In this document: positions 2,096-61,214 of the stretch, in pieces
Numbering within the stretch: position 1 is the first letter of the stretch
Layout: each line of letters begins with the position of its first letter
NCBI GenBank assembly: GCA_976551045.1
Contig: CDPCPM010000263.1
Coordinates: forward strand, 4,340,001 to 4,404,000
Length of the DNA stretch: 64,000 nucleotides
Source of the DNA: Glaucostegus cemiculus
Taxonomy: Eukaryota
Direction: 5' to 3'
Translations under genes and position numbers: made by a program
Notes under the pieces: model-generated
What the model saw: only the letters and a program-made list of their open reading frames with translations
Database searches by the model: none
Told to the model about the DNA's origin: nothing

Positions 2096-2177
2096 AAAAG
2101 CAGAAAGTGCTAGAAACACTCAACCAATCAGGCAGCATTTGTGGAAAGTTTCAAGTTGAAGATCCTTTGTCAGAACT
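2096..2177 (-). mobile_element. Penelope-like terminal repeat fragment with decayed hammerhead motif
   Basis: Reverse complement reads AGTT-CTGACAA-AGGATCTTCAACTT-GAAA, followed by the family tail seen in other copies. Confidence 0.6.
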
Positions 2178-2483
2178 TGGATTGTGTTCTTGTGAAGAAC
2201 CTTGTATTTAGTTTTGAGGTATGCAAACCTAAGTTTTACCTCTTGTCGTTTGTATATTATAAAACTTGCAATATTTCAGAAAGTTTTCATTACCAGAAAA
2301 TGTTCTACTTTTAAGCTTGGTGTAATCCTTAGTTACTCTGCTTTTCTAATCCTTTCTAAGTTTTTGTTAGTGCGAAGAGGAAACATGCAAATTCTTTTTA
2401 ACATGTACCATATGTTTCTGTAAAATTTCAGCCAGTATAAATTTATCCACTTTACTATTCTGTAACCCTCTGAAATCATATAC

Positions 2484-2610
2484 ATAAGAACACAGGAACT
2501 AGAAGAAGATTAGGCCATATAGCCCCTTGTTTCTATTCCGCCATTCAATGACTGTAGCTGAAGTTGTACCAGTGATACTTTCCTGCACCAGCCCTCATGT
2601 CCCTTAATAT
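2484..2610 (-). mobile_element. CR1-type LINE 3' tail fragment
   Basis: cataagaacacaggaactagaagaagattaggccat is the reverse complement of the tail type ending at 6069 and 20560. Confidence 0.5.
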
Positions 2611-3269
2611 CAACAGTCATCACACTTCATATTTCTGTGAGATGAACATTTTTCTTTATCATTATTCATTGAAGTCCAGATTGTCTGACTGGCTCCACTC
2701 TTTAGAGCTCCTCAGTTTAAACAAAAATCCATTAACCATTCATCTCTTGGTTCAGCACTTTATCTTTCTCCTATCCATGATTCCATATTTCTTTGTAAGT
2801 GAAAAAAGAAACACTGTTAACTTCAGTCAACATGCCATCACTCTGATGTGCAAAAATTGCCATGAGGTTGAATTCACAAAAGAAAAACTATGTGGCATTC
2901 CTCGAAAATGGATAACTGACTGAATGTGGACCTAACACGAGCAATAATTGTATTTCAGTCAGATTTACTATACTGAAGAGGTTGTCCAAAACTGACTGCA
3001 TGTGGTCATTCAGAACACGTGCTGCCCTTTGTTTCTCTTACCATGGAACAGATTTCCTATATTCATCCGAGAGGCATACAACCAGATGCCATTTTCAATG
3101 GGAATTTATTTTCAATTACAGACATTTTTCTCAACACCATTTCTGCCAGTCATTCATCTGTAATAATGGCTCAGATTTTCCCTCTCCATTTTTTTATAGT
3201 GGGCACTTCCAACAGCTCTGTTATTAGTAATACATAACACAGACAAAGAAACATAATGTGCTTCCAACC

Positions 3270-3522
3270 TCTACATTAACTCGTTTACCTCGTTTGGTTC
3301 ACTCTATCAGAGGTATTCCCTTTGATCTACTCATCCTTCCCTGTCTTCCCTGCAAGTGAAAATTAATCTATTTTCTCTGTTTTCCAGTTCTAACAAAAGG
3401 TCTCAGGCTTGAAATGTGAACTCCTTTTCCCTTTCCACAGATGCTGTCTGACCGGCTGAGTGTATCTTGCATTTTCTGTTTTTATTTGCAGATTTCTGGT
3501 ATCTGTCGTGTTTTTGATTTTC
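3270..3522 (+). mobile_element. Penelope-like terminal repeat with decayed hammerhead motif
   Basis: AGTT(3386)-CTAACAA-AAGGTCTCAGGCTT-GAAA-TGTG-AACT(3422), then ccacagatgctgtctgaccggctgag...attttctgtt. Confidence 0.7.
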
Positions 3523-6069: not shown

Positions 6070-6178
6070 ATATTCTTATTTCCAATGGAATTGTTCAAAG
6101 TACTGTGTTATTCTTCATATTTTAAGAAACTGCACAAAGTTGAAATGAAGCTTTCCACTTCTCAATTTTTCTGTGTAG

Positions 6179-6306: not shown

Positions 6307-6642
6307 GTAGTTCAGGAATGAAAATTGGACCTGTATTATTCTTTGTTCTATTCTAAACATCTTCTTCGTATGATATTTAGAATAGAACAATTTGGCTATA
6401 TTAATAGCTTCTGAATGGTTGGGTATGGTACCATTTCCTTCATAGATTTGAGTTCCTAGTCTCCTCTACAAGACGTGGAAGGTGTTAACAACTATGAGAA
6501 ATATGAGCGGGAGTATACTGTGCCTAGATCATGTTTTCATTTTTGCCTGAAAGAGGGTAAAATAAGAAAGTCTAAATGAGTCTCAAACAGTAATTGTACA
6601 ACCCAAAGGGCTATCTAGAAATAATATTTTTTTTTTAATATA

Positions 6643-6933
6643 CAAGATATCTTTATTAGTCACATGTACATTGAAACACACAGTGAAAATCATCTTTTGC
6701 ATAGAGCGTTCTGAGGGCAGCCCGCAAGTGTCACCACGCTTCCGGCACCAACATAGCTTGTCCACAACTTCGTAACCCATACGTCTTTGGAATGTGGGAG
6801 GAAACCGGAGCACCCGGAGGAAACCCACGCAGTCACTGGGAGAATGTACAAAATCCTTACAGACAGTGGCTGGAATTGAACCCGGGTCGCTGGTGCTGTA
6901 ATAGCGCTACACTAACCGCTACACTCCCTTGCC
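6643..6933 (-). mobile_element. Full-length tRNA-derived V-SINE
   Basis: Minus strand has an A-box-like TAGCGGTTAG, B-box GGTTCAATTCC (6872-6882), V-domain GGGTTTCCTCCGGGTGCTCCGGTTTCCTCCCA and a tail ending catgtgactaataaaga. Confidence 0.9.
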
Positions 6934-7520
6934 TTGCACACCAAGCTGTCAATTTTGCAGGGAAAGGAGAAGTTGTGCAGTCAAATGCTTTTTGCCCCAA
7001 CGGAATTTTTTCCAAGAACCCTATTTCCCTCCCCAACCCCTTTCACAAATCCGATCACAGTGACAATATATAACCTTGGGCTTGTTGACGTCACAATTCC
7101 ACCCCATGCTGTGTGAAATACTGTTTAAACCTAATCTTGAGACAGAATAATTTATTGTTGCATATTACTCAAAAGCTTTATCAAAATGAACACTGTACTT
7201 GATGGGCACTGTGTCAATGGAATGTTTGTTTAAAGGGTACACTTGGCTATCAATTGCTTTCCCATATGTTGTACAATGTTTGCTTAATTATTAACAACTC
7301 ACTCAAGTGTGCATTGAGCTACCATGGTGATGTTTCCATCAGACGATTATTATTATACAGCTGTACTAAACAAGGCTCAGAGGGTCCAAAGGAGATGAGC
7401 AAGTTCTGGAGATGAAACTAGCCAGAAAGGCAACTAAGTTGGACTGAATAACTTCATTCATTTCTGTTGCATTCAATTGGAGGTACTGTTTTAATTACTT
7501 ATAATCTTTACATCAATCAG

Positions 7521-17184: not shown

Positions 17185-17724
17185 GTACAGTGGAATTTGT
17201 GTTTGTTCAAACCTCCAGCTGAAAGTAGTTAATGTGCTTGTTTTCACAGTTTCATTGCACTCCTGTCTATCTTTCATTCACTTTTTGAGAAATGATCCTC
17301 ATTGCAAGGCCATCTTTTTTTTTTGCCCTTCTTTAATTGTCCATTGGATAGTGGTGATGAGGCATTATTTTGAAATACTATAGTCCGAGTTGGCAGGGAG
17401 TTTAAGAATTTAGACCCTATATATTTTTATTATATATTTAAACAATTTGACTGTTAATGTATTTTAGGAAATAGTTTTACTCAAGCTAATTATACAGTAA
17501 TTTAACTCAGATTTTTTTAAACATTGTTGTATTTTCGTTTTGTAATTTCCTCCTGAATCTCTTTCTTTAATGTACCTCAGTAATAGTAATATAACTGGGT
17601 ATGGTTGTTGAGTGGTGGGTATAGGATGGAACTCTTGATGAAAAGTAGAGCAACAAGTCTTGGAAAAGAAATTCAGAATTGTTCAAATACACTCTGGTAA
17701 ATGTACAAAATAATGTTCCAACAG

Positions 17725-17921
17725 AACTCTACAAGAAAGTTCTTGAAGTCACTCTCACCCCTGTGGGCATTGATACAGCAAAACTTTATCCTATTCTTCT
17801 CTCGTCGGGATTACCCAGAGAGATGCTGGGACAGATATGGGCTTTTGCTAATCGAGCAACACCCGGCAAACTTACGAAAGAGGAACTGTATACTGTATTG
17901 GCTATGATAGCCATGTCACAG
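17725..17921 (+). CDS. SYNRG: SYNRG window exon 9 (197 nt), EH domain core: ELYKKVLE...LGQIWAFAN...LAMIAMSQ
   Basis: ccaacag|AA...TCACAG|gtattg; SGLPREMLGQIW is the EH signature. Confidence 0.97.
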
Positions 17922-18588
17922 GTATTGCAACATTGTTAATTTTCCATTATTAATTATTTACCTTCCGTGATCTGGATTATTTTATAATTTTCAGATTATC
18001 ACTTTGTTACAGAATGCATAAGTATAAATTGTAGTAGGTGCTGGCTGAATGCATTCCAGTCTGCAAATCTTCCGAGGAGATAATGGATTATTTGGAAGGG
18101 ATAGAGCCAGTTATGTGATTGAGGAGTTCAAAAGAATCTTAAATATCTCAGAACTGACTACCAGCACCTTATGAATATATTATTGAGATTGTTTAAAGAC
18201 TTTGTTGAACGCATGTATAATGAAGCTTGTGGATTTTCTCCCACCTCCATTGGGATTTATAATCCCAATTTCTGATGGTGTTTAAACTTTATTAATAACA
18301 CATGCAAAATAAAACCCCAGAAAATAACTGGTTTTCCTTTTAAAAATATAACATTGTAATAGGGAAAATCGCTGGCAGAAGCCTCAATTGACAGAAGGTA
18401 TTTACAAACATTGGGTTGTCAAATTAATTGTACCCTTAGGTGTGTAAAATATCGTGTTCAATAAGCAAGTGAATATAATCAGAAACTTCATATTTCTTGG
18501 TTGATTATAGGGTAGCTAACACATAAATTGGTTAACATCTGTATGTGCTTTTGATTCTACATTGTAATAGTCAGTGTTTTTTTTCCAG

Positions 18589-23397: not shown

Positions 23398-24129
23398 GTA
23401 TAAAAGACTACCTTAAGAGATATCTGCATTTTTATTCTGAGCATTGGAAAAAGTATAATTGGAATTCTATTCACAAATTACTGCGAATACAGATATGTGT
23501 AAAGTAACACGCAATTATCCATTTATTTGCATTTTCAGCTATATAAATTAAGTTGCAATGCACATCAAAGATCTTTTTAAATCAAAAGGAGGTGTGCTGT
23601 TATGTATGTGAATACATTTGGTAAATATTTCTAGTCTCAAATTTCAATTTGACTTGTCAGGAAATGCCAGTTAAAGACTACTCAGCTTTTGTTATTCCAT
23701 ATGATATAATTGCTGGAGGAACTCAGTGGGTCCTGAAGGTAACGATCAATGTTTCAGATCAAGACCCTGCATCAGGAGTTCTTCCAGCAGTTTTTTGCTC
23801 CATTTTTCAGCATCTGAAGTCTCTTGTATCTCCTTGTTATTTAGTAGATTCCATTCTTTCATTTCCTTTCGGAATGGGCAATGCCTTGTTTTCCCTACTC
23901 AGTGTTCCAGGTCATTCTGCCACCTAACCAATTCGTTTGCCAAAAGGCATTCGAAATGTGTCTGGTAAATGTGATATCTAACAAGGAGATAGGGAAAGAA
24001 ATTGAACTTGTATAGTACCTATCATAACCTGATTGCTGTTCTACTTTTTTGTTAAATTTGGCCATTCATATAAAGTAATGCATCGTGAACTAACTGCTCA
24101 TGAACATCTAGAAACCAAATTAGGAAGCA

Positions 24130-26100: not shown

Positions 26101-26107
26101 GGGACAA

Positions 26108-26234
26108 CAAGTAAAACCGCAGAAGCTGGAATCTAAAGCAAAAACAGAAATGCTAGAAGAACTCAACCAGTCAAGTAGCATCTGCAGAAAGAGAAACCAG
26201 TCAAAGGTTTGGGATCAGTGAACCTTCTTCAGAA
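26108..26234 (-). mobile_element. Penelope-like terminal repeat with decayed hammerhead motif
   Basis: Reverse complement: CTGAAGA-AGGTTCACTGATCC-CAAA-CCTT-TGACTG plus family tail. Confidence 0.65.
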
Positions 26235-26316
26235 GAGTGAAAGTTTTACACTTTTCAGAGTAGAACTATTGTTCTATAGCTGAGGGGAAAAAATGACTAT
26301 GTTTGAACTTTTTTAG

Positions 26317-26379: not shown

Positions 26380-26954
26380 GTGAGTAAACATTGAGCACTA
26401 CGTATAACCACCCTTGCATGTAATAACTAAAGCTATTCCTTTTACCCCAAGAGTAAGCTGAATGTAAATTGTGAATTATGTACTTTAGGTATGTAGACTT
26501 GCTTGTCACTCTACAATTCCTTTCTGAAGTACTTCTTCTCCAAGTTCGTGCCTCATCAAGTTTGTTTACAGGATTGTCCAGATTGTGACCAACATTGAGA
26601 TCAATCTGGAAGCCTCTGTGTTCATTGCAGTGACCAGGTTGCAAAGAGATACTCACCTGGTCACAAGGAACCAAATTGGTTTAAAATGATGCAGAGTCAC
26701 AACCAAGTGAAAATATATTGAATGAACTAATAAAATGCAGATGTTGCATAGATGCTAGTTGATTAGGCAGTTCTCTTTATATTTGAATTTTTTTTATTTT
26801 GTGCATTTATTTCTCGTTGCAGTTAAATTTGCTATAAGATTTCTGCCTGCCAGCTTTGTTTTGAAAGGAAATTGAGGGAAATGGAGTATGTTATTGATAT
26901 TCCAAAGCACCATGCCAGATAATAGTCAGAAAAAAACATAATGAACAACCTGGC

Positions 26955-27247
26955 CCTTCCATTTATCACCTCCCAGCTTCTTGCATCATTCCCACTCTCC
27001 CTCTCCCCCAGTTGTCTACCTCCCCCCTCATCTGGATTCACCTTTCACCTGCCAGCTCGTGCTCCACCCCCTCCTCCTGCCCTCTGATACTGACTTCTCC
27101 CCTCTTCCTTGCCCTAATGAAGGGTCTCAACCTGAAACATCAACTGTTTATTTCCCTCCATAGATGCTGCGTGACCCACTAAGTTCCTCCAGCATTTTGT
27201 GTGATGCTCCATATTTCCAACATCTGCAGTCTTTCTTGCATCTCCAT
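26955..27247 (+). mobile_element. Penelope-like terminal repeat with hammerhead motif (G5>A)
   Basis: C-rich body, then CTAATGA(27114)-AGGGTCTCAACCT-GAAA-CATC-AACTG, then catagatgctgcgtgacccactaagttcctccagcattttgtg. Confidence 0.8.
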
Positions 27248-27929
27248 AATAAAGAACATGTTCCTTATCATGTTGTTCCCTTACCGCTTTCTCTGCATTG
27301 ACCGTGAAATCAGGGAGGGAGGAGAAAAGATGCAGAACTGAAACGCTCCTGTCCGGAAAGAAAAGAACAACCTTGGACTGAATTTTACAAAGTTCTATTA
27401 TGTTTCTCTATATCTGGCTTCCAACTTTCTATCAAAGACCAGGGAAAAGGTTGCCTTATTTATCTTTTTCAATTGTGGATTAATGTGAGGATGACGCTTT
27501 CAAACACAAGTAAATAACTGATTACTTCTTTATGATCACATTAACCACATACCATTTGAGGAAAGAAAACCTGAAATAGATGGACATTTTTTGGAAGGGA
27601 GAGTTGGGCAATTAATTAATCTGAACTGAAATAGCCCCAGGTTATGACTTGTTTCCAACCTGACTATTGCAACATTGTGATATAGCAACTTTTTAAAAAT
27701 TAACATAAACTAGTTGGTATGGTATGGGCCCAAAGAATTACTAACAGGAATAATAAGTGCACTCTGAATTTAGCAAAGACGGAAGTTCAAAGATCTGGTA
27801 CTTTTAAAGTAGTTCCTATTTTTACCCTCAACGGAGTTTTTAGTGGACATGGGGTAATTGCCCATTGACAATGTGTGACAGCAGCCACCTCGATACTTTA
27901 GCAGTATTCTAGTGAATCACTGAACTAGT

Positions 27930-30227: not shown

Positions 30228-33177
30228 GTGAGGAAATGGTTCGATTGATCTGGTAAATACATCCAAATCAATTGCATACTGCAGTTACCTTTCTATACTA
30301 CTGCACCAGTGAATTACCATTTACATATGTAGCTGTCCATTCCGTATAATCATCACTGTTGGGAATTGTACTGAGTGCCACTGTTTGCAGTGGTGTTAAA
30401 CACAGTGGAAAAATCCAACTGATGCCCTTGATTTAGAGATATCACGAGTAATTGTTTTGATGTACCTATTTTTACGCTATTACCATCAATGTATTGTGCC
30501 AACGTTGTTACTGCATTATATTTTTCCATCAGGAGTGTAACAGTATTCAATCAGTATTTGGAATGGCACAACTGTTGCTCAACATCTACATTTTCAGGTC
30601 ATTCATTATAATCCCAGAGAGTGTGACAATTAGTCAAGTTGGATGGCAATTGTTAGTTATTTTATTGCCACCTTTTAGACTGCCATTTCAAATTTATGTT
30701 TCTATTTCATTTTTAGCACCATATTCAATAGCAATTGCTTGTACAAAAAAGAACATGGTGCCTTAACATGGTGCCTAGTTTTAGCTGCAGTTTTCTTACA
30801 AGGTTACAAATGATTCCTTTAATTATTGTGAAGGGGCACCATTATTGAAGATAAACAATGTTTTTATTTATGGAAAACCATTTAAATATGGTTTCAAAAT
30901 TTGACTTGGTAAAGCGCTTTAGACTTCCTTTAGGATGTTAATGTTTGTGCACAACCTGAGTTTGCCATGCTGATTAGAAGACAGCATTAAAATAATTATC
31001 TATATAGTTTCTTCAACTGATAGCAAGACAAAGGGGATGAATGCACCAGTAACATATAAATAATTCTATGAACAAAAATGAGTCCTCAAAAAAAATAATA
31101 AAAGTAGTAATTGGTAGTAGTAATTTAGAGAGGATTTCCAGGGCAATTGACTGACCTAATGAAAGTCCAGAAGAGAAGTCATTTTAAAAACAGAATACCA
31201 TATTTTTCTCCTTCATAGTCCAAATAATTGCTCTTCATTTACTCATGGGTGGCATAAATAATGTACCAAAAATTAAATATTGTCCATTTAACAATCTATC
31301 CATACAACACTGACATACCAGACTAAGTTTAATGGAGTACCAATAATGGCAGTAGATATTAAGAGGTGGTGTGCATCTGTACCAATTGTATGTGACATTT
31401 AAAGAATCAGACAGAGCCAGAAATTAGGCTGAACAGAGACTAGTAATTTTTTTCAAATAATTGGTTGTGGTTAAGAGACTGATCTGGGAGCAATGCCTGT
31501 AAAGTGCCCTCTAATGCCCATTGAAATCGCAAATGTTTTCTTTCAGAGTGCAAAGTGAAAATATTTTATCGTGGGACTGTTGGCAAAATACTAAATTAGC
31601 AAGTGCAGTGTATTGAAGAGTTCTTCAGCTTTTTTTCAATTTACAATTTATGTCGAAGATGCACTGCGGCTAAGTTATACTTCTATGTGGACCTTTCACA
31701 ATTATTGAAATTGTTAATGTTTACTTTAGAGTATTATTTACTTTAAAATATTTTGGAGAGATCTGAAATGCAGCTTTAGCTGTAATCAAGTAGATTTTCA
31801 GGCCCTGGGTTGTTGTCACTGCACTTGGTAAAACTGAATACAGTGTATGTATTCATTGCATTGTAATGTTTAACCTATGGTGTTGCCACAAAAAAACTGT
31901 TTGGATACTAACAATTGGGCATTTATTCAGTTGGTGTTGTGGGACCATGGTACATATAAGTCAACTACAAAACTAAATTTTTCTACACTTCATAATTAAT
32001 TGGCTTTGGAACGACCTGAGGGCATGAAGATGTTGATTGTTCAATGCATGTTCTTCATTTAAATGGAATCATTTTTTAAAAAGAAAATCCTTTCTTAAAA
32101 TACACTGATGGGGAGATGGACTGAAGCTGACATTCCAGCACTCCAGAGTTATTGTTAGACTAATGCTTGGATTTGTGCAAATGCAGCTCAGTGTTGCAGT
32201 TTCTGCCTCTTGCATTGGACAGCTGATCTCCAGTTGAACAGTGGCACTAAGGACTAGTTTTTAAAAGATGGAGCCGCATCATTCTTAGATTTGTATTCGA
32301 ATACTGAAATAAAAGCCAGCTATGGTGGGACGATTTATCTTCTACACCTTGCTGGTGACTCCAAAAGTGCCTCAATATCATAATTTATCTGTATTGTAGT
32401 CACAGGTAAAGTGTTAACCCGTCATAATAATTCAATTGTGGCAGCTTGACAATGTTTCTGCTTGATTTTCTTTTAACACTATTTTGCTAAGATTCAGCAG
32501 TTTTTAATTTTAAAGGGCCCGTTTAAGTGTTTGTTGCATGGATGGGTTTTTATGTTATCCTGAAGCAATATTTGGTTTTATTTAATGAACCTTAATTATT
32601 ATTTAGAAGCTAAAAGCAAATATTTAATGTAGTGACCAAAGAAGTTTGGAGCCAAGATAGCCGGAGGTACTGTTAAGATGGAGAGCCTCAATACTTTACA
32701 ATGAATAGAGTTACTTTTAATCGGTTATTTTTTTTAAAGGCTTTTAAAATAGAAATGGAAGGCATTTCTTTTGAAAGTCAATCAAGTAGCTTTTAAAAAT
32801 AGTAATTCTGATGAGAGTATGAAAATCAGTTCAGTTGTTTCTTGCAATATGTTAGACACAATGGGAAAGTATCTATACTGTTCTGTATGGTACAGTTTAA
32901 AGTTGAGCTTAAAGTCATACCCTTTTGTTGGATGTAATGCATCTGTATAAGCTTTTTGGATATTTTTTGTACTTTGTAATAGCTCCAGTGTTATGCTTGT
33001 ATAATACTGTGCACTTGGCCATTTGGAAAAAAAATGTGCAAATTTCTGTGTTGAAGAATGATGAATGAGGTTTGTTCATCAACGTTTTTCTCATTCACTT
33101 TGTTTAGTCCAGCTAGCGCTAGACTTTGCTTTAAAAACAAAAAATGATGCAAATACACATGGGTCGTGCATTATCTG

Positions 33178-34830
33178 TGAGTTAACCTCAGGTTAATGAC
33201 CTTTCATCAGAATTGGGAAAATTTCATTATTGAATGTATTTTGTTATAAAGAGGAAGGGTGGGAAAGAACAAAAGGAATGATAGGACACAGAGAGACTGA
33301 ATGACACAACGAGCTGATGCTGGCAGAGAGAGGATAGTGAATCACATTTGATCTGTCTGGAAGAAACATGTATAGAAGAACATTAGTGAGAGGATAATAA
33401 AAGAATCCTGTAACTGTGAAACATTGCAATTGCAGGAAGTCTAAAATAAAAGAGAATCTTGGAATTACCCAGCAGGGCAGGTAGCATCTGTGGAGAGGGA
33501 AAATCTAAGTTAATGTTACAGATTGGCGATCTTTGATCAGAATTGCCTAGTTCAGATACAGACTGAAAAAGCTAGTTATCTTGAGTTGTTAAATTCAGCG
33601 TTGAGTCATTGAGTGCCATTACATGCCCCTCAGAAGATGAGATGGTTTTCCTCAGGTTTAGGTTGAGCCAATACAACTGTGTAAGAGGCCAAAAACACAA
33701 GTGTCAGAGCGGGAGTGAGATGCAAAGTTAAAGTGACAAGCAACTGGAAGTTCTGCTTCAACTTTGCAAACTGACCAGAGGTGCTGTGCCAAGTAGTCAC
33801 CCAATAAGTATATAGTTTACTCATTATAGCGGAGACCACCTTCTGAGCACTGAGTGCACTATACTAAATTACCACCTTCTTCACATGGAAAGTGTATTTG
33901 GGTCACAGGATAGTGGCTAGTCTTGCATCTCTTTTGGTTACATGGAAAAGTGCCATGAGAACCACCTGTGTAATTTCCACCACCTTCAATAAGATGCTAC
34001 ACCAGACACATCTTCCTCTCCCCTTCCTTTTCAGCATTATTAAGGAACCATTCTCTTAATGATTCCTTGGTTCACCTTTCCATCTTCATCAACAACCATT
34101 CAACCAGAGGATTTACATGTTCTTCTAATTTAGTACATTGCATTCGATGATCACAATTTGAGATTGTCTGCACTGGAGAAACCAAATTCAGATTGGCTGA
34201 ATGTTTTGCAGAACACCTCTGTTCAATCTGCAAGCTTCTGGTTCTAAGCTTCTGGTTGCCTTTTACTTTAATTCCCCACTCTATCCCCTTTTGAACGATT
34301 AACGCTGTTGCAATAAAATTTAACGAACGCCTGAGAAACAGCATTTCATCTTCAGTCCAGGCACATTGCAGGTCTCAGAACTCAACATTGAACTCAACAT
34401 TTTCAGGTAACCAGCCAGTTTGTATCAGAATTGGCAGTTCTGAGGAAAGGTCATCAACCTGTAATGATAACTCACTTTTTCTCACAGATGCTGCTTAATC
34501 TACTTGTATTCCAAATTTACAGCAATTGTAGTACTTGGAGGGGTATCTCAATTCCAGGATTGTGTTTTCCTTCTTTCCTCTGTCCTCAGTCATCTATTTA
34601 CATCGTTCCCAGACAGATAGCTGTGACTAACAAGCCTTTACCACCTCATCATAGATGTTTGCTTTGTACTCTCCACCTCTCTAAAATTTAAAACATCTTT
34701 GATTTCTAGTTTTTCCTGCTTCAGATGAAAGGTCATCAACCTGAAATAATTAACTCTGTTTGTCTCAGTGCAGATGCTGCCTGACCTGCCAAGAATTTTC
34801 AGATTTCTATTATTTATAGTCTTTGCTTTT
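33178..34830. mobile_element. Head-to-head Penelope-like element remnant, each arm with a GIY-YIG 3' end and two terminal repeats
   Basis: Plus arm: FTCSSNLVHCIR*SQFEIVCTGETKFRLAECFAEHL and EKQHFIFSPGTLQVSELNIELNIFR*. Minus arm: HGTFPCNQKRCKT, NLV*CTQCSEGGLRYNE*TIYLLGDYLAQH, EENHLIF. Hammerhead-like motifs at 33180-33214(-), 33507-33544(-), 34436-34472(+), 34718-34755(+). Confidence 0.88.
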
Positions 34831-37650: not shown

Positions 37651-37654
37651 CTAA

Positions 37655-43200: not shown

Positions 43201-46200
43201 ATGAAGGATTAACACTAAAGGCTAACCCTTGAAATTAAAAATAAATGTGATCTGAGAAGAGCAAGAAACTTGCATTCATTGATGATTTCCTTTGTTATTT
43301 TATAATTGATTCTTACTTGAGGTATCTGTGATTTTAAGAGGCAATAAATGTTATTGATTTCCAGTGTATTGTCTTGTGATCTCACTCAAATATCTAGAAA
43401 ATGTTTTAAGGGACTGAGTTTTAGTTTGAATATAAGCCTACTCTCCTACATTCTTGTGCAATTGAGCCTGAATACATTTTTGGTGAGATAAACAATTACT
43501 TGTAGGAAGTTTTAGCAGTCTTGAACTATGTTTTCCATACTTATCACAAGAATACACTGTTTAGCAGCTTTATCTTTTACATTAGCAATTATTTAAAGCC
43601 AACTCAAATAGCAAAGATTTTAGGTATGTTAATATCAAAATAGTATCCTGAGACAATCAAATGTTGAATTCTGAATAGTAACCCGGTTTTATTCCAATTA
43701 AAAATCTGTCTTATCAATGGAACTTCTGCTAAAATAAACTTCCGTTACTCACTAATGAGGATGCAAAATATTCTGAATCATTCTATCCTTAATGCGTGAA
43801 TAATTATCATATCTGTGCTGAAAATAGACTTGGATTCATTTTAATCATTTTCTTTCTAACTTTTCTGTATCTAGCCAAAAAAAATCTGTATATCTTTGTT
43901 TCACATCAGCTCCATTGACATCTTAATCCTGTACAGTTGAGTCCAAATAAAGGCATACCTGCTGAATCCTAATTTACTCTGTCCATGGAATTTCTGATCT
44001 AAATAGCCCAGGGACATATGCCAATATCCTTGATCAGCAGTGTTGGTCATGTCTTTATCAGGATTCAATTGCATTCCAATAAATTTATCGTACTGCTTTT
44101 TGTAATGAAGTGCAATCTCTTGTATAAAAATGCTTAATGCTTTAAAAGACTTTCTACCTGAATCTGCTTTCTTTAAGCTTTTCTTTCTGTAATTTGCTCT
44201 GTTTGCAAAAGTATTGCATGTGAAGTCTAATCTGTATTTTAAATAGCTGTTATACTCTGTAATGTATGACTACTGCATATAGTATTTTCTGACTTTTTTC
44301 TGAAGTGGCATCTTGCTAATAAACATTAATCTTTGAATATTTGGTGGTGTAATGTCATGTTGACTTGCCCTAACTAAAATTGCCCAGATTAAGTGGTAGG
44401 TGTCCTTTTTGCCCAACTAATGCAAGTGTACAAAAAGATATAACCAACAAAAAAGACATGCAGTGCACTGACTGTAACATATCAAAAGCCATTTTAAAAA
44501 TAATCATAAATCTCAAAGCATTTTTGACCAATAAAGACACTATGATTTAAATGATATAACTTAGTTCAAATATTGTGCATTCTTCTATGTCTATAGTAGA
44601 AAGTGACCTCCAATTATAACCCACCTCTTTTTTTTACCCCCTGTGGCTATTCAGTTGGGCAGGATAATATTCATTTGATTTAAACTTGTTGATGTCCCAT
44701 AGTGATGCTCACTGACAAAATCCTGAGGAAGGATCCTCTATCATTGCAGTTGTGTTCCATTCTCTCAATTTTTTTTGTGCTTTTTACTTTTCTCTGTTGT
44801 TTACATTCACTATCATTATCATATTTCTTCCCTGTGTGTCTTTAAATCTTGTTCTTTGTGTCTCTGTGATCCTTCATTAAAGAGCCTCCTCTCCTCTGTC
44901 TCATGTCTTTACCTCTCATCCTCTATATGTCTTAGCACATGAACCTTTACTAATTTACTCAATCTGTAGCTTTCTCTTCTCGACATCTCCTCAATACCTA
45001 CCTTTTGTTATTTCTCCTAACTATTCTACAATAGTTTATATTGACCCATGTGAAATGCCAATAACATTTAAAGTTTTGTAATAAAGTTGGAGGCATGTGG
45101 AAGGAAGATAAAGTGGGTACTGAGGCAGGGGCCAAAAGCCCTGAAGGTGATGCATTGTATGAGTGTGAGAGCACCTGGGGGCTTGTTCTGGGAGTAGGAG
45201 ACTGGAGGCAATACGATAGAGGGAGGAGGAGAGGAGTCTGGAAACGTTCCATTGCTACAGTAGATCTGACTAATCCTAAACATCATGGGAGAACCTGAAG
45301 GGATACCACAAAGGCTCAGCTGGAAGTATGTGTTACGTTCTTATAGGGCAAAATTGGAATTGTTGGGTTTGGAAGTTAGCATGAGACAGCACAAAGCTAA
45401 GTTCTGAGGCCACAAATCAAGCTTGAGAGCCAGGGAAAGTGGTAAAATTTGGGCTTTGAGTTTGGACAGAATGGAGCAGAGCTCATGTGTGGAGAATATT
45501 GTGGGATTAGAATGTGGATCTGGAAATTACAGTGGGGTCAGGCTCTGGAACTATGTAGAGCAGTAAAACCATATAATTACTGCATGAGGGTCTGCAGAAT
45601 TAACGTATGCAAGTGGGCCACTGTAAGAAGGAAGTAAGCCAGGGCTGGTGTCCTTGAGGTATGCTTGTAAGTGATCTGAGCACCAGCAGTATGTAAAGAG
45701 CCTGGGATTTCATGAAAAATTGAACTTTTTGACAGCTTAAAAACTTCTGAAGATAGATTTCCAATCACCTGCTTGCCCCACAGTGTCACATGATTGTACT
45801 TAATGCATTAACAAGTTCACAAGAGCATTGCCATTACACATTTCAACCAAAATTGTTTGTCGTACGTCCCAGGTTGGGTGGCACCCATTGGAAAGAGAAC
45901 CACAATTAATATTTCAGATCAAACAGATATTCTGTGATAACTATCAATGGAAGTATGGTAGGAAAAATGTTTTATAGGAAACATGTATGACATTCACATG
46001 TGTTTTAGCACGCTCATTTATAAATCCACCAAATTAAAAATAATTTTGTTAGATGACTAAACATTACTTCTGGAGGGACAGTGACTCCTGGTTAGATGTT
46101 GGTGTGATTAGATTTTTAACTTTCTCATTAAATAAACGTACACAGAAAATAGAAATTAAAATAAGAAATCATGTTCATGGCCTATGAGCTATTGGGGTGA

Positions 46201-46391
46201 ACTGGAACTGCCTTTACTCCAAAATATTTTCTTCATTCTATTGTGGGAAACACACAAAGATATTAACAAATTCAGTCACATTTTTCATCTGTGGGTAGCA
46301 TTTGGGCACATTATTTCCACTGTGTTTTGACCCATTAGTTAAGTCCTATAACTGTGTAAAAGAAATCTGCGTGAATAATTCCATAATAAAA

Positions 46392-46566
46392 AAATAGAAA
46401 ATATTGCAAGTAGTCAACAGGTCGGGCAACATCTGTGGAGAAAAATATAGTTAACTTTCCAAATAAATGACCTTTCATCAGACCTTCATTTGATCTTAAC
46501 TGTTAACTCTGTTTCTCCCTCATTAGATGCTACCCGACCTGTTAAATATTTCATCAGTGTTTTCTG
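46392..46566. mobile_element. Fold-back element formed by two inverted Penelope-like terminal repeats
   Basis: aacaggtcgggcaacatct (46416-46434) pairs with agatgctacccgacctgtt (46525-46543) at 17/19; minus-strand CTGATGA-AAGGTCA near the centre. Confidence 0.8.
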
Positions 46567-47809
46567 TCAATTCATATTTCAAGCATACAACATGTTTTTC
46601 CACAGTCCCATAAATTATTCATTTGTACCAGTCTAGACTTGTATCCTGCAATACACAGTCATAAACTTTGCAACATTTTTTGCAATGAAATTAAAACTGA
46701 ACGTAAGAATTTGGCTGCAATTGTTACTTGCATATTTTTTGCAGGATTATAAATTATCTTGTGTTGAAAGTTTTCTTCCCCACCCATCTATTTGACAGTC
46801 ATTTTGGAAAATTTGTATTTATCTACATGGTGTTATTCAATTTATAATAAAACTATAACAACATTGATATTACCAATATTCACAGCAGCTTTCCATTGTG
46901 AACTCGTAATTTTAAAAATGGCCTTCTACCTTTGGTTGCTTTGCTATTGGCCTATGATCTTGACTCTACATTTAAAAGAAGATACTACTAAAAGTTAACT
47001 GCCTGCTGAAAACTGGAAAATCTGAAGGAGAATTGTTTTTAAGTGACTTTGGACATGTTTCAGTATCCGGTTATCAGCAGTAATGCTAAAAGACAGCAAA
47101 TTGATTGCTGCCTTTATTTTGATAGAAAGAACATAGCCCAAGGGAGATTAGAATGTTCCCCTGAGTTATTATAAATGTTTAAATAAATGTCAAATAGATG
47201 ATGAAGGTACTTTTAATTATTGTCACTGATATCATTAAGTGGATTGTGGTTTTTTTCGTCTTAACTGTGAGGGAAAGAATACCTTATGTTATACTAAAAG
47301 ACATACTTTATCTTTCAGCGTCGGGTTAGCCAGCTGAATTACATTCAAGCAGGCACCTTGTAAGATGGTGGGGAGGGAAATTCTATCTATCCTAATCTTC
47401 CTATTTTTACAGGAGTTTCTCTCAGTAACAGTGGCATTCAAAGAATTGCAATAGGTGCTAAATAACTAGCAAAATCTTTCTCATCTGACATGAATCCTTG
47501 ACATTCATGACTTGAATTCATGACTTGCAGATGACATGATTTCTCATTGTAGATAACCCTGACCAAGAAAGTTAATTTGAGCTTTTTAGCATCATTTTTA
47601 GGACACCATTATTTATATTAGTTGTATGTTGTCTGTCACCCTGAATGGTGAGCAGTTTGCATTATTCCTGACCATCCACTGTGCTATTCTTTGAAATCTA
47701 GGAGGGTGAACCATGCTTCCAACATACATCTCTTTATTTCCCTTTTTCCTCCTCTCTCACCGATACACATCTTACCTATCTTCAGTAAACGGTTTCCTGC
47801 TATGAATTG

Positions 47810-51665: not shown

Positions 51666-52518
51666 CTAGTTGAAATTTTCTCCTTTCTGGAGCCAAATCC
51701 TTGTCCTTCCCATTTTCCCAAACCATTACCCACCTGTGGAAGTCAACATTTTTCAAGATTGCCTGTGACAAATTTTACATTTGCAGTAAAATCCATTCCT
51801 TAGAGAATGTGATTTTGTCTTCTGAAACGTTTCCATGTTAAAAAAAAGTTGCTTGCTACCCTGACAAAAAGATCAGTCTGTACATAATATTGACAGAAGA
51901 AAAATGTTCCATCGGAGGTTGAGATCTCAGAATGATTCTTGATCTATAGTGAAATCTAGACTCATACATCAAATTAACTGGCACGTTTTTAAACTTCATG
52001 GTGTCTAATTGTTAAAACAGATTCTCAGTTAAGTACTGCTGGCTGTTCTAAGCAGAGGGGATTTTCTTATGTTATTGACAAAAGAATGCAAACTCTTCTG
52101 TGGTCACAGATTTTAATACGTAGTAAAACTCCAATAATACAGCATCTGATTGCTCAGAAATCCTGATGGTCCAAGATGTAAGTTGGGCTTCCAGAGTTGG
52201 AGGTCCACAGTATGGTTGGGGGCTGGGATCCAGGCTGTCAGCTGAGTGTGTGGCTGGAGCCAACACCGAAACATTAGGGGTCAGGAACGTGGCTACATTT
52301 GGAGCTGGGATCCTAATGCTTGTTTATTTCCCATTCCCTTGAAACTCTGGTTCACTTGGGGAATTTTTTATACTATTGTATAACACATTTCAAAGAAAAG
52401 TGATATCGAAGTGTGTTGTGGTATTAATAGGAAAAACATCCTGATGAACCTGCAGGTCTGGCACCACCATGCCAGATTATTGGAGTTTTACTATATTGAC
52501 CAGGCACAGTTTTTGTTA

Positions 52519-52665
52519 ACAACATGCAAAAAAGCTGGAGGATCTCAGCAAGTCAGGCAGCATCTATGGACAGTCGATGTTTTGGGTCCAGACCCTTCAT
52601 CTGCACCCGCTGAGTTCCCCCAGCTTTTTGTGTTGCTCCAGATTCCAGCATCTGCAGGCTTGTGT
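52519..52665. mobile_element. Fold-back element from inverted Penelope-like terminal repeats
   Basis: caaaaaagctggaggatctcagc pairs with gctgagttcccccagctttttg; minus-strand centre CAGATGA-AGGGTCTGGACCC-AAAA-CATC-GACTG. Confidence 0.8.
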
Positions 52666-52735
52666 CACAATTTTTATTAAGGTGATTTCCCATCATAAAC
52701 TTGTTTAACACAAAATTTCAACCCGGAAACTGCAG

Positions 52736-53458: not shown

Positions 53459-53559
53459 CAAAAAAGGAATGCCATTTAAAAAAAATCATTTTAGCAAATT
53501 TTACTAGTTTGCTTTCAGAAACATTTCAAAATAAATGAAGAAGATGTATTTATTTTTGC

Positions 53560-53812
53560 AAAAAAAAACAAACTGCTGGAAGAACTCAGCGAATCAAGCA
53601 GATTCTGTGGAGCCAAAGGGATGCTGGACATTTTGGGTCGAGACCCTGCAACGAGACTGAGAATGTAGACAGAAGATTGTCAGTATATAGAAGTGACAGG
53701 GAGGGTTGAGACAAAGGCTGATGGGCAGATGGAGTTGGGTGGGGTAGGGGGAAGGGTAGAGACAGAGTCTGGAAGGTGTAAGGAGTACAGAAGGAGAGGG
53801 TTACCTGAAATT
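53560..53812 (-). mobile_element. Penelope-like terminal repeat with decayed hammerhead motif
   Basis: Reverse complement CAGTC-TCGTTGCA-GGGTCTCGACCC-AAAA-TGTC; purine-rich body is the complement of the C-rich body at 26955-27110. Confidence 0.7.
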
Positions 53813-56107: not shown

Positions 56108-59100
56108 GTATGGAATAAATGACAACAATTATTAATTGATATTATCAATTTTTAGGGGTTACTAGTTGTTTAGCAAGCACCCATGAGTATTTTAGCCTCC
56201 AGGATAGAGAACAGCAATATTTCAGTACCAAAATAGAAAATAATTTTATTAAAAAATGTCAGCCTCCTACTTTTTATAAATTTTATTAAGTCTCCACATA
56301 TACATTTTGAAAATCGTACTGCAAATACTCTGTAGTTTGTGGTTGAGGTTGAGTAGATGACTGGCCTCAGGATTTTACAAGTGTTACGTTAAGCCAGCAT
56401 TTGATTAAAGTTGACTATTCACTCCTACCTTCACTGCTACTCTCCACCCACCCCCTTGCAGCAAACAGCCTGACTCCTCTTCAAACCTCTTCTAGCTGCT
56501 TGTGAGCTGGAGCCTGCAGCGTGTCAAATTTCAGGCAGGATCCAGCAATTTGAATTTCATCAAATATTAAATGCTTTTACATTATACATATTCTCCAATT
56601 CAACTTTTGACATTCTTCATTAGAAACTTCACAGAAAATAATTGAGCAGATGTTATGTGAAGCAAAATATTTGTGTATTTTGAAAATCGCAAGGGGCCTT
56701 GACTTCGATCAGTGAATGTAGCTAATATTTTAATGTATGTAATTTTAACACTTCAGTATTCAGATCAGGCTGGTGTGGAGCATTTCTCAAACCACACACA
56801 GCCTGTGGTGTTAATTTCCTTAGCTATTGCATTTTTCACTTATCTCCCCTCTTCCCTAAAGATATTGAATGTTTGTGGAAAATGGTTACATAGCCACTGG
56901 AAGCCTTTCTTTACCTTGGTTAAATCGCAATTTCTCATGCAGTAGTCTTTGTATTGATCGCCTGTAGGCTATTTCACTGCATAGTGCTTCACTGAAATAC
57001 CTCAGGACAATATTGTCTTTACCCATGTTAGTCTGCATGCGATTTCTACATCTATATTGTTAGGGCAAGGCAAAGTCACAAATGGATCAGTAAATTAAAA
57101 TTGTATGTTGAGGTTTCACAGTCATTTGATGCTGTCCAGTCTGACTCAATTGATTGCTCCAGGCACTCCAGCAAATGTAAGTTCGGGTTGGAGTTGGCAG
57201 GGTGGTTCATTGATCGCCGCTTGCAGTGAGTCGGTGATACCCCATGGGTTCAATAAATAGGCACGCTACCTGTGTCCCATACAAACGTAGTTCAGCATGG
57301 CCAGTAGTTAAAGTTTCAGCCAGAAGACAGAATTCATGGCACGGAATCAGAATCCAGACTTATTGTTGAAAGTTGGTGCACGTGCAACCAAAAAGATTTC
57401 CTTGGTGGATGGATGATATCTCAAACAACAGAAGTTCAGGCTCAGTCATGATCTTTTCACACTCTGAGTAACTTAAGTCATTGAATAACAATAACTAGAA
57501 GCATTTCCTCCCTCGGGTTTCCATGCCATCAAATATGGGACCTTGTGGTCCATGTGATTTGTATGTACAGTTGGTATATAAGAGATTCATGTTAGAAATC
57601 TTGTAGAAATCCAAAAAGCAATAAATTAAGTAAATACTCCCATTTGATAGCATTGTGTGCATGTATTGTGATGTGAATGTTGGTTGCATAGATGTCACAG
57701 TATTTAGTATCCATAACAATTATACTTGTTTTCTAACTTCATTTAAATGAAATTATTGTACCATGTGTAAAAGAAATGATTCTAGAATCTGCTTAGTTTA
57801 GAGTGGTTGAAAAAATATCAAGAACGGTGTGCTATTAAAAACATATTATTCAAAGCAGTAATTAGTTTACTTTCGAATCATCTATTAATGATAAACAGCA
57901 CAGGATTGTTTACTAGACGTTTATAATGGGCCGAAGTCTAGAGTGATTTGTTTATACATTTTAATATTTGGTGTATTGATTTTTTTTGCATTTTACACTG
58001 CTACTTTTGGGGAATAACTAAACCACATAAGGCTTCTTGGTATTTAAAGATGCAGATAATGGGATGAACCAATACATGATGAATGTACTTGTTCATGCAT
58101 TGTAACTATAACATACAGGCTTTGCACAGGTGTAGAATTAGAAATGATCTCTGGACCCATAAACCAACATTTTCTAACACTTGGTCACCCACTCTTTCTG
58201 ATGCTTTTATTGTTTTCTAAAGCAAACACAGATACAGACTACTTGTGTGATGACTCAATTATTTATTTCTTTATTCCCACTATAATTTTTTTTGCCTCTT
58301 TCTTTAAGGTGCACTTGTTTATATCTGCTACTCTTATTTCATGCATTTGTAGAAGTTTTAACATTTTTATATTTAATTTACCTGGAGAACTGAAAGAAGT
58401 GGAACAAAATTAATCAGCTCCTTCTCAAAACTGCTGGTTAAATAAAATCTCTCTCTGCACGGTGGGTGATCTGTGGAAATAAGCTCCAAGCAATTAACTT
58501 TAAGGAAAATGGATAAGTGCTTTAAAAACAGATCACAAAGTGAGGGTAGATATAGACAGCTGCATGTTGTAGTGATCTTCTGTGCTGGTGAAACAAGGAA
58601 ATGTGATCTGTGAAATGCATCTGGTGACAACAGATTGAATGATTTAAGTTGCTCTGTGGACATTTATTCTTATATAAACAAGATATAGATAGATAGATAT
58701 TTGTACAGAAAAGGAATTGAAGAATATGGGTTTAAATGGAAAAGTGAGTTGAGGCTGTGATTTTGGAGAAGGCTCAATGGCCAAAAGAGCCTGGTCCTTC
58801 TATTTTTTATGTTCTTAATTTCAAATCTGTTGTATTTTTAAAGACAAATAGTTTTCCCCTTTAGCTTAGTTTTATTGTTTAAAAAAATAATTAATTAAAA
58901 TGAATTAATTTCTGGAATAAATATTGACATTCTGCTAACATTATTATGAAGATAGTTACACATAATGTTGCACAAATAGAATTAATTTTTAATCCAGTGC
59001 CCTTGATTTGCATATGTGTCCTAAACTTGGTTGATAGCACCAACAATTATTAACAATGGCCATTAATTTATTCTATACATGCTTCCAGTTTCATAGTCTA

Positions 59101-60999
59101 TTACCTTAAATTTTTCTGTTGAGATTCATCTGTTGTTCTTTAGCCTATCCACTTTATTTGCTATGTTCCTTTGAATGCACCAAAATCCCATGCAGCTTTG
59201 TCAAGTAAACAAATTTTTATTGTTAAAAACTGAGTACTTTACATTATTCATTCAAATTATGGAGTAAACAACCATGACCCTCAAATAGACCTTACAAAAT
59301 TCTAGTCGTTGACAAAAAATGATTTTTTAAGTTCCATTTATCCTTTATATTGTTTTCTCCTGTTCCGGCCAATTATGAAATTAACTAATTTTGCTGTTTT
59401 CTGATGCTATCTTAACTTACAGCCTTTATATCAGAACTGTTCAATGCCATTATAAGCTTTTACATGCAGATTAGTGAGGCATGTCAGGGGCAAGTGATTT
59501 GTCACAGTATGTCTTACTACTTTGAGTCCTCTGATTCTTACTTCATAGCACAACTTTCCTCATCAGTGTTTCCTGTCGCAGGCACTTCCAGTTTAATTAG
59601 TAGGATTATTCAATATGTTCCTCCTCTCTGTCTCCCTAAGAATAAGAGTTTTCTTCTGGTTACTGTAATAGGTGTCAGAAACTGCTTGTCCTATAGGCAC
59701 CAAGGTTGCATTAATATCAGTGAGCTGAGTGCAAAATTAATAGTTACAGTAGCCAGCTTATAATGTGGAAATTTTCTCCAGCAATCGTTTGAGCATTCAA
59801 ACGCTCCTCTAAGCTGCAAAGAAATTCCTGAAGTTTTTCAACATCTAAGCTGCCACACAGTATAAATGCAAAAACATAATTCAGCTGCAGAGAGCAAGAG
59901 AGACCACATTTGTCTGTTAGTTATTAGTGGCCTTGTACATGTAACCCCTAAATGATGCTATCCAAAGAAGCTCTGCCCACAGATACTTTTTTCAGATTTT
60001 AACCTTGTAGAGTGCTTTCAATTCCAAGACTAATTGTTGCAGTGATTAAGTCAGCATTTGATGTCTGATGGCTAAGAGGTACAGATTGCTGTTTCTTTAA
60101 ATCAGACTACTGATTGATAATAAACAGCTGGTGAATGTACAAATTAAAAAAGCTAACTCTCATTTATAATAAACTGCTCCAGGTGATTTTCTGCAGTTTT
60201 GGCAATTAGAAAATGGCATCTCATATTTCTAAGCCCATATTAACCAATTATACTGGTACCTTGTTTACCACTCCGAATGTGTTCCCAGGAATGTAAGCGA
60301 TAATTCAATCAGCACTAGAAGTCATTAGAGTGTTATATAAATGGGTTACTAGTAACGCATGCTGTACTGGGGACATGGTACCAACCGATGACCTCCCACA
60401 TGCTATGGTGTGAGCCCCTGCTCTGTGCTGACACTCCCACAGCAGTGAAATGCTGATCTCAGCAGCCTGACGCCTGGTATGGAATGAGCCACCAAGACAA
60501 TGTGCAGAGGCTGCCTTTGAGGACAGGCATTGGGCAGGCTAGGGCAAGTGATGTGGAGCTCAGGGCTGCACCCTGCCTTGCACGATGAGTGCAAGCATTG
60601 CTGAGGGCTGGCAGCAGCTGTTGCTTGTGTTGACAGACCACCTGAATCCTCCAGTCTCTCTGATCACCTCCTGTTGGATATGGTGTAAGCCATCGTCTCT
60701 CTTTGTTTAGCTGTATAGCTATCCCCAGCTTTGGGAATTCTGTGTGGTAACAAGTTCAATGGCCAGCAGTGAGCAGCAGATGGAAGGGCAGGAGTTTGTG
60801 TCAGGTTTAATGGCATAACAGTGGATATCTTCAGTGGGCTGCCTGACTGTAGGACCAAAGGCCTGATAGCAAATCAGCACTTAACTATGTACCAGTATAT
60901 AATATCCATCAGATAACTATCAACAGCATGGACTGGACTCTACAACAGTACGTAGACTTTACAACATCAGCTACATTTTACCAAGATATAACAGTCTCT

Positions 61000-61214
61000 T
61001 AATGGCTTCATTATTTAACCCAATCACAGAAATTGCCTTTGTTCCATCCACTGCGCTCCTCCACCTTCACTGCTATGTAAACTAATGTTTTCTCTTCCCC
61101 CCTTGCCGTCAGTTGCTGAAGGATCTTTGGCCTGAAATGTTAACTGTTTCAATTTCCACAGATGCTTCCTGATTTGTTTACTTTTTCCAGCAACTTCTGT
61201 TATTATTTCAGATC
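61000..61214 (+). mobile_element. Penelope-like terminal repeat with decayed hammerhead motif
   Basis: CAGTT(61110)-GCTGA-AGGATCTTTGGCCT-GAAA-TGTT-AACTG(61146), then ccacagatgcttcctga...ccagcaacttctgt. Confidence 0.7.

What the first reader, a model, noticed from the sequence alone, without database searches (positions are those of the whole stretch)
2096..61214. About 12 intronic repeats share a minimal hammerhead ribozyme architecture with covarying stems
Seen: copies near 2146(-), 3386(+), 26198(-), 27109(+), 33180(-), 33507(-), 34436(+), 34718(+), 46449(-), 52571(-), 53621(-) and 61110(+) align to stem I-CTGATGA-A-stem II-GAAA-CG-T(T/C)-stem I'. The stems change while keeping pairing: stem I AGTT/AACT or CAGTT/AACTG (CAGTC/GACTG when two partial copies are combined); stem II AGGT/ACCT, AGAT/ATCT, GGGTC/GACCC. 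Established: Penelope-like pseudo-LTRs carry minimal type-I hammerheads whose helix III is reduced to a palindrome (ACGU) and which are thought to cleave as dimers. Inference: at least two subfamilies of hammerhead-bearing terminal repeats have spread, mostly without their ORF, at about one per 5 kb here. This may be an under-described ribozyme-bearing, retrozyme-like non-autonomous family in this lineage.
Basis: partly seen in the sequence, partly recalled or inferred. Interest (0 to 1): 0.72.

Follow-up and report, generated by a model that had tools for sequence, protein, structure and literature searches.

The report
Penelope fossil ends; one double-hammerhead family
The repeats are real but are worn-out end pieces of Penelope-type jumping genes, a known carrier of a tiny self-cutting RNA that is broken in every copy here; the one unusual point is an old family whose end carries two such RNAs in a row, the first with a shared change that likely disabled it.

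Summary
All 12 copies are real, and five more pieces exist. They lie in introns of a synergin-gamma gene. None keeps a complete hammerhead; the clean motif appears only in other genomic copies (1,683 near-intact pattern matches). The repeat is the 3' end of autonomous Neptune-type Penelope-like elements. It follows a GIY-YIG endonuclease in 25 of 29 loci, full pLTR-ORF-pLTR copies exist, and ORF remnants lie in the window at 33631-34282. ORF-less copies are 5'-truncated stumps, not a retrozyme. Density is about the genome average (34 per 200 kb). Covariation amounts to two changes between families; within families it is at chance level. New here: an old family carries two hammerheads about 280-400 nt apart. 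The first sits 35-36 nt after the stop codon and reads GUAA for GAAA (23 of 34 loci; second copy A in 27 of 34). Four of the 12 named copies are the two arms of one such insertion. The first hammerhead is most likely a vestigial duplicate; an asymmetric built-in dimer is not excluded. This scan has noted the general family before, here and in other shark or ray DNA.

The parts
2088..2181 (-). Stump of old-family end (hammerhead remnant plus tail); CTGACAA for CTGATGA, 3' side of stem I deleted
3197..3513 (+). Old double-hammerhead family: part of the spacer, second hammerhead (box 1 decayed) and tail
23708..23826 (.).
26110..26243 (-). Old-family stump; box 1 intact, GAAA lost
26953..27254 (+). 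Younger family A: 3' UTR piece, hammerhead (G5A, CpG decay) and tail
33109..33221 (-). Left arm of inverted insertion: second hammerhead (GAAA damaged)
33418..33558 (-). Left arm: first hammerhead, 36 nt after the ORF stop, GTAA in place of GAAA, G8 also lost
33631..33970 (-). Left arm: broken linker and GIY-YIG endonuclease remnant of a Penelope-like ORF
   Evidence: E 5e-20; tblastn E 2e-10 to P0003
33967..34410 (+). Right arm: broken linker and endonuclease remnant up to the stop codon near 34410
34430..34504 (+). Right arm: first hammerhead, 30 nt after the stop, GTAA in place of GAAA
34505..34705 (+). Right arm: first tail and spacer, homologous across the double-hammerhead family
34706..34806 (+). 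Right arm: second hammerhead (GAAA kept, U4A change) and tail; 282 nt after the first
45870..45922 (-). Weak extra fragment
   Evidence: E 5e-4
46389..46586 (.). Inverted pair of old-family stumps joined near box 1; the - copy has both boxes by pattern but stem II and the palindrome are broken
52502..52669 (.). Family A stump (-) joined to an inverted tail piece (+); both boxes decayed
53542..53694 (-). Stump of the CTGATGC subfamily; both boxes decayed
61015..61234 (+). Old-family stump with upstream 3' UTR piece; box 1 decayed
17715..17936 (+). Host gene: exon with the EH domain of synergin gamma (context only)

Best explanation
These are decayed 3' ends of Neptune-type Penelope-like retrotransposons, each with a broken minimal type I hammerhead and likely inert, and four of them are one inverted insertion of an old family whose end carries two hammerheads, the first of which is likely a vestigial duplicate. 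Shown: the repeat ends RT-linker-GIY-YIG elements of about 3.4 kb; direct 5' pLTR copies and inverted 5'-truncated copies occur; the double arrangement and the GUAA change are shared by many loci, so they were in the source element. Inferred from known PLE biology: reverse transcription starts in the tail just behind the hammerhead and usually stops early, so most insertions are ORF-less stumps; in the active element two hammerheads of a tandem transcript paired through ACGU to cut, probably with help from the element's protein. Inferred: a short terminal copy inserted just behind the stop codon of one source element, then lost A13 under relaxed selection.
For: A same-strand hammerhead follows the endonuclease in 25 of 29 non-self loci fetched with an endonuclease query. 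RT motifs (DKG, YID) and a CX4CxxC linker lie upstream; 17 longer relatives at E<=1e-20, 16 with RVT_1, one named from a bamboo shark. An inverted 5'-truncated copy adjoins 7 of 20 long copies. A direct upstream hammerhead repeat occurs in 6 of 19 non-self loci that reach the 5' region, and two copies have both ends (L151, L153). 5' starts decline smoothly. In family A the core is no more conserved than the flank (8.5% versus 7.6% non-CpG change). Double family: second hammerhead 277-403 nt downstream in 17 of 29 non-self loci against 1.4% by chance; first hammerhead 35-36 nt after the stop in 33 of the 121 ORF-end rows, the other rows mostly other families; position 13 is T in 23 and A in 6 of 34 first copies, A in 27 of 34 second copies; with a spacer-only query T 7, C 3, A 3, other 2 of 15. 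The two hammerhead-tail units differ at only a handful of majority positions in about 120 nt, so one hit in the core is what drift could give. No pile-up of 5' ends at either cut site.
Against: In the old cluster the core is somewhat more conserved than the flank (12.9% versus 18.0%), although that cluster mixes subfamilies. The first hammerhead keeps box 1, both stems, the palindrome and the GUU site, all that a substrate half of a dimer needs. Seven of 29 loci end 67-172 nt behind the first hammerhead with no further homology in the flank held, so its tail may have worked as a 3' end. Clade assignment rests on the linker motif, not on a tree. No cleavage was tested. 16 of the 23 T counts come from a query that itself held GTAA.
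Confidence: 0.85

Rival explanations
1. The double-hammerhead family had a built-in asymmetric dimer: the second hammerhead's intact core would cut the GUU site of the first, while the GUAA change would stop the first from cutting the second and so spare the terminal tail. One 5'-truncated copy could then self-cleave without a tandem neighbour.
For: Fixed position, shared spacer and shared GUAA across loci. The first copy keeps stem I, ACGU (CpG-decay pattern TG/CA) and GUU. Minimal hammerheads need a partner (PMC4209133).
Against: Folding the majority sequence of the region gives 0.12 expected pairs between the two hammerheads (weak, because CpG decay blurs the majority). No excess of copies begins at the first cut site. 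A cut there would separate the ORF from both tails. Box 1 of the first copy is kept though this model does not need it. Few differences separate the two units.
Confidence: 0.13
2. GUAA is a tolerated natural core variant and both hammerheads were active, giving a symmetric dimer that releases a spacer RNA of about 350-370 nt, possibly as a circle (the birth of a retrozyme inside a PLE).
For: Spacing equals the typical non-LTR retrozyme unit (mean 363 bp in the one chondrichthyan sampled, bioRxiv 2026.07.22.740005). Natural core variants exist (PMC3088659).
Against: A13 is part of the strict core used in PMC3088659, whose section on core variants lists a U13a insertion but no A13U. No tandem arrays of the spacer unit were seen in 59 loci or in the window. 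Spacer-bearing copies do not start at the cut site.
Confidence: 0.05
3. One reading: a separate non-autonomous, retrozyme-like family of hammerhead-bearing terminal repeats spread without an ORF.
For: 39 of 50 unbiased copies have no ORF remnant within 800 nt upstream. Copy number is very high.
Against: Continuous 5' truncation; 11 of 50 copies retain ORF DNA; the same ends sit on coding elements of the younger family and of the double-hammerhead family; no tandem units.
Confidence: 0.05
4. Some intronic copies act on the synergin-gamma pre-mRNA as domesticated ribozymes.
For: Five of the 12 named copies lie in sense; the pair at 34440/34722 is 282 nt apart.
Against: Every sense copy has a damaged core. 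Density matches the genome average.
Confidence: 0.02

Closest known systems
Minimal type I hammerheads (min-HHR) in pLTRs of metazoan Penelope-like elements (Cervera and De la Pena 2014, PMC4209133)
   Same: CUGANGA, unpaired nucleotide after A9, GAAA, palindromic ACGU without helix III, 4-5 bp helix I, several consensus families per genome, most copies single and truncated.
   Different: Helix II is 4-5 bp, not 7-8 as in Schistosoma. That paper (main text read) names no cartilaginous fish, and its close pairs at 100-700 bp are on opposite strands; here one family has a same-strand pair in its source element, with GUAA in the first.
Neptune-clade endonuclease-positive PLEs (architecture as described in Craig et al. 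2021, PMC8557442)
   Same: RT, CX2-5CxxC linker, C-terminal GIY-YIG; 5' truncation, partial tandems, inverted 5' copy, tail.
   Different: Clade not tested by a tree. The ORF starts about 190 nt behind the hammerhead, not inside it as in the anole element.
PAc, Poseidon element of Anolis (Frangieh et al. 2024, PMC11167929)
   Same: Insertions end in a tail just behind the hammerhead. That ribozyme cut only with protein and was not needed for insertion in vitro, which fits the lack of a cut-site footprint here.
   Different: Different clade; one hammerhead per unit.
Non-LTR retrozymes (bioRxiv 10.64898/2026.07.22.740005)
   Same: PLE-derived type I hammerheads in vertebrates, including one chondrichthyan; unit length of about 360 bp is like the spacer here.
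   Different: Defined as non-coding tandem repeats with two or more complete hammerheads. Here copies are single or doubled ends of coding elements, and none in the window is complete.
Conserved intronic hammerheads of amniotes (RECK, C10orf118; passages in PMC3088659 and PMC6155905)
   Same: Intronic position.
   Different: Those are intact, single and conserved; these are decayed repeats.

Membership tests
min-HHR of metazoan PLEs | Core CUGANGA, GAAA, UH | tested here: met
   Met at family level: majority of each family, 1,683 pattern matches versus 0 control, 27 descriptor-complete copies in fetched DNA
min-HHR of metazoan PLEs | Complete core in the window's own copies | tested here: not met
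   0 of 14 window copies that cover the core; 1 of 21 in the arbitrary sample has all three boxes; none passes the descriptor
min-HHR of metazoan PLEs | Unpaired nucleotide between 9 and 10.1; palindromic 15.2-16.2; no helix III | tested here: met
   A at the bulge in 143 of 150 family A copies; CG with CpG decay at 15.2-16.2 in A and in both hammerheads of the old family
min-HHR of metazoan PLEs | Stem covariation | tested here: inconclusive
   Two changes between families; chance level within families and on the window alignment
min-HHR of metazoan PLEs | Located in the pLTR of a PLE | tested here: met
min-HHR of metazoan PLEs | Self-cleavage as a dimer | not testable with these tools
   Folding only: stems I and II form in the monomer; for 12 natural copies the hammerhead dimer is about 8-19 kcal/mol less stable than a plain duplex
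Endonuclease-positive PLE, Neptune/Nematis type | Single ORF with RT and C-terminal GIY-YIG | tested here: met
   (weak Pfam hits on broken copies, below cut-off)
Endonuclease-positive PLE, Neptune/Nematis type | CX2-5CxxC linker between RT and endonuclease | tested here: met
   CX4CxxC in L061, L062 and relatives; remnants in the old family
Endonuclease-positive PLE, Neptune/Nematis type | 5' truncation, partial tandems, inverted 5' copy, tail | tested here: met
Endonuclease-positive PLE, Neptune/Nematis type | Placement in an RT phylogeny | not tested
   No named reference PLE proteins were obtained
Non-LTR retrozyme | Tandem array with two or more complete hammerheads | tested here: not met
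   no arrays in 59 old-family loci
Non-LTR retrozyme | Non-coding unit with its own boundaries | tested here: not met
   ORF attached in 11 of 50 copies; smooth 5' truncation
Non-LTR retrozyme | Circular RNA in vivo | not testable with these tools
   Only contigs were available

The most novel reading that the evidence does not exclude
An old shark or ray Penelope family evolved a built-in, asymmetric double hammerhead in its 3' UTR: the GUAA copy behind the stop codon serves as substrate, the GAAA copy as catalyst, so a single element cuts itself once without a tandem neighbour and spares its terminal tail.
Probability: 0.13. Interest if true: 0.62.

Novelty: new variant of a known kind. Interest (0 to 1): 0.3.

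Why it matters
The main finding is ordinary: Penelope ends with minimal hammerheads are known, and these copies are dead. Two points carry some value. First, scale: about 0.5 million ends by extrapolation from 34 hits in 200 kb (rough; 20 stretches from large contigs), with 1,683 near-intact motifs. Second, the double-hammerhead family. What PLE hammerheads do is open: they cut poorly, need a partner or protein, and were dispensable for insertion in vitro (PMC4209133, PMC11167929). A family that spread widely with a second hammerhead fixed about 360 nt from the first, one of them changed in the core, is a natural test. Either a permanent intramolecular dimer was harmful and one core was lost, or it was harmless, or it became a one-way cutter. 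A four-construct cleavage assay can tell these apart.

Tried and rejected
Rfam: no hammerhead hit in the window or in 10 loci chosen mostly for near-intact copies; its models do not see this minimal form. Pfam: nothing on the 110-aa endonuclease piece; only sub-threshold RVT_1 and GIY-YIG hits on 2 of 7 broken ORFs. Covariation across window copies: not above shuffles. Footprint of cleavage in the genome: 5' starts and 35 inverted junctions show no peak at the cut site; none of 30 spacer-bearing loci starts there. Local enrichment: rejected (17 per 64 kb versus 34 per 200 kb and 3 per 30 kb of flank). Tandem retrozyme arrays: none. Expression: no RNA holder listed; the four runs laid were contigs and cannot show ends. 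Folding the old-family majority sequence did not bring the two hammerheads together; weak evidence because of CpG decay. Lunse, Weinberg and Breaker (RNA Biol 14:1499, PLE hammerhead variants cleaving as dimers) is not held; I saw only its title in a reference list, and it may list GUAA or doubled variants. Repeat libraries (Repbase, Dfam), the bioRxiv supplements and the supplements of PMC4209133 and PMC8557442 were not seen and may already describe this family.
Full report
Observation. All 12 named positions match one repeat. A profile from 230 copies gives 17 hits in the window and none on reversed sequence. The window is G000:C263:4340001-4404000 in a 2.85-Gb genome. It lies in a synergin-gamma gene on the + strand, and no copy overlaps a candidate exon. 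The host is likely a shark or ray: the most identical of 17 protein relatives (53%), and one of only two with a name, is from a bamboo shark. The window's copies are decayed. The plain core pattern occurs at chance level (2 versus 1.78). None of the 14 copies that cover the core has all three boxes, and none passes a full descriptor. Elsewhere the motif is clean, for example CAGTC CTGATGA A GGGTC TC GGCCT GAAA CG TC GACTG in L202. A tight pattern matches 1,683 times against 0 for the reversed control.

Covariation. Clustering 286 copies on columns outside the ribozyme gives a younger family A (about 88% to its majority), an older cluster (about 80%) and smaller intermediate groups. Two pairs differ between A and the old cluster in a compensatory way: the first pair of stem I (C-G to U-A) and the first of stem II (G-C to A-U or G-U). 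These are two events, not many. Within clusters, double changes are near expectation (family A: 11 seen, about 10 expected over ten pairs; old cluster 34 versus 21, with the excess spread thinly and partly in poorly aligned outer pairs). Much of the visible variation is CpG decay. On the window alignment the covariation score is reached by 144 of 500 shuffles. In family A the core changes as fast as the flank, so copies decay neutrally after insertion.

What the repeat belongs to. Loci fetched with one window copy showed GIY-YIG fragments upstream. The reverse search found 33,515 first-look candidates. In 25 of 29 non-self loci a same-strand hammerhead follows within about 270-530 nt. Longer copies add RT and a CX4CxxC linker, the mark of Neptune and Nematis in PMC8557442 (passages read). 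Seven of 20 long copies have an inverted 5'-truncated copy attached. Six of 19 loci that reach the 5' region have a direct hammerhead repeat upstream of the ORF start. L151 and L153 have both ends; the unit is about 3.4 kb in L153. In 294 kb of unbiased DNA, 11 of 50 copies keep ORF DNA upstream, and 5' ends thin out smoothly. The ORF-less majority is therefore the usual product of 5' truncation. Density is 34 hits in 200 kb of arbitrary sequence, which extrapolates to roughly half a million ends; this is rough because the 20 stretches came from large contigs and hits cluster.

The double-hammerhead family. The stretch 33109-34806 is one inverted insertion. Each arm reads endonuclease remnant, stop codon, hammerhead 1, spacer, hammerhead 2. 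Both first hammerheads read GTAA where GAAA is expected. A search with the ORF end plus first hammerhead gave 29 other loci; 17 have a second hammerhead 277-403 nt downstream, against 1.4% by chance, across a homologous spacer (one of the 17, L227, has an unrelated spacer). A search with the spacer alone gave the same layout wherever copies reach far enough. The first hammerhead sits 35-36 nt behind the stop in 33 of 121 ORF-end rows; family A and single-hammerhead relatives of the old family have theirs mostly 260-390 nt behind it (output partly cut). Over 34 double loci, position 13 is T in 23 and A in 6 first copies, and A in 27 second copies. The spacer-only set, free of query bias, gives T 7, C 3, A 3, G 1, gap 1. 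The two hammerhead-tail units are otherwise nearly identical over about 120 nt. Contigs of two other organisms span the spacer into the second hammerhead of L241 at about 95% identity, which suggests an insertion older than their split.

How it most likely worked. Shown: the anatomy above. From the literature: minimal hammerheads lack helix III and cut weakly as dimers (PMC4209133, parts 1-2 of 4 read). In the anole Poseidon element reverse transcription starts inside the RNA just behind the hammerhead, which makes the tail; the ribozyme cut only with protein and was not needed for insertion (PMC11167929, parts 1-2 of 4). PLEs tend to insert into or next to their own copies (PMC6765202, passages). 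Inferred: insertion starts at the tail and mostly stops within a few hundred bases, leaving hammerhead stumps, often with an inverted twin. In one source element a terminal stump landed just behind the stop codon and was then copied with it. A13 belongs to the strict core (PMC3088659, passages and section 8), so the first hammerhead likely lost catalysis. With only a handful of differences between the two units, one in the core is compatible with drift. Selection against a permanent internal dimer is an untested alternative. Seven of 29 loci stop 67-172 nt behind the first hammerhead, which hints that its tail still served as a start for reverse transcription; deletions or long insertions could mimic this. 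Against any role for cleavage in making these copies, no 5' ends pile up at either cut site. Folding of 12 natural intact copies gives stems I and II in the monomer and a hammerhead dimer well above a plain duplex in energy, in line with low unaided activity.

Comparison with what is known. The motif meets the min-HHR definition at family level, and the element meets the structural features of endonuclease-positive PLEs. It fails the retrozyme definition of bioRxiv 10.64898/2026.07.22.740005 (parts 1-3 of 5 read): non-coding tandem units with complete hammerheads. That preprint sampled one chondrichthyan. Paper searches for hammerhead, Penelope and shark, two or tandem hammerheads in PLEs, Neptune in cartilaginous fish and A13U or GUAA listed no title describing a doubled same-strand hammerhead in a PLE 3' UTR; of the papers listed I read only those named here, plus passages of PMC6155905. 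The most relevant paper on PLE hammerhead variants could not be opened, and repeat libraries were not available, so the variant may be on record. Earlier notes of this scan file the same family as decayed Penelope ends in this and other genomes; one mentions a shared core change without saying which, and none was found for the double family.

Verdict. Real repeat, correct family guess, wrong element class. The copies here are inert fossils. The double-hammerhead family with a fixed GUAA is a real, modest variant with a cheap decisive test. Interest 0.3.

Noticed in passing
window 23778(-), 53676(-); L168, L178: A smaller subfamily reads CTGATGC-A instead of CTGATGA-A (TGCA in 11 of 25 members): either A9C or a C inserted before A9. 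A second shared core variant.
   Followed up: partly
L176:1315(-), L127, L050, L066: Another subfamily has CTGAAGA (N7 = A in 12 of 18) and loses the fourth pair of stem I (A-C in 12 of 18).
   Followed up: partly
L179:3283(+), L036:716(+), L023:1732(-): Relatives of the old family with a similar sequence behind the stop codon but no hammerhead there (in L179 and L036 a single one lies 310-326 nt downstream); likely the state before the duplication.
   Followed up: partly
L088 (G000:C180:4607261-4610362): Two double-hammerhead ends in tandem on one strand, four hammerhead remnants within 1.3 kb.
   Followed up: no
L089, L101, L097; window 46486/46492: Several inverted junctions fall at or just before the start of CTGATGA, making a short palindrome; probably microhomology.
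   Followed up: partly
window 34897-34993: Three perfect copies of a 32-nt unit just behind the right arm of the inverted insertion.
   Followed up: no
window 859-959, 6640-6939, 37523-37869, 54268-54462: Another common dispersed repeat, SINE-like, in both orientations.
   Followed up: no
window 39122-39485 and 47811-48356 (-): Fragments of a LINE-type element's 3' part.
   Followed up: no
G000:C172:650235-1187837: Seven endonuclease copies with very similar scores within 540 kb, suggesting a segmental array.
   Followed up: no
L111-L123, 5' part of the ORF: The family A ORF has a Pro/Ser/Ala-rich repeat region before the RT; many long copies are truncated in it.
   Followed up: no
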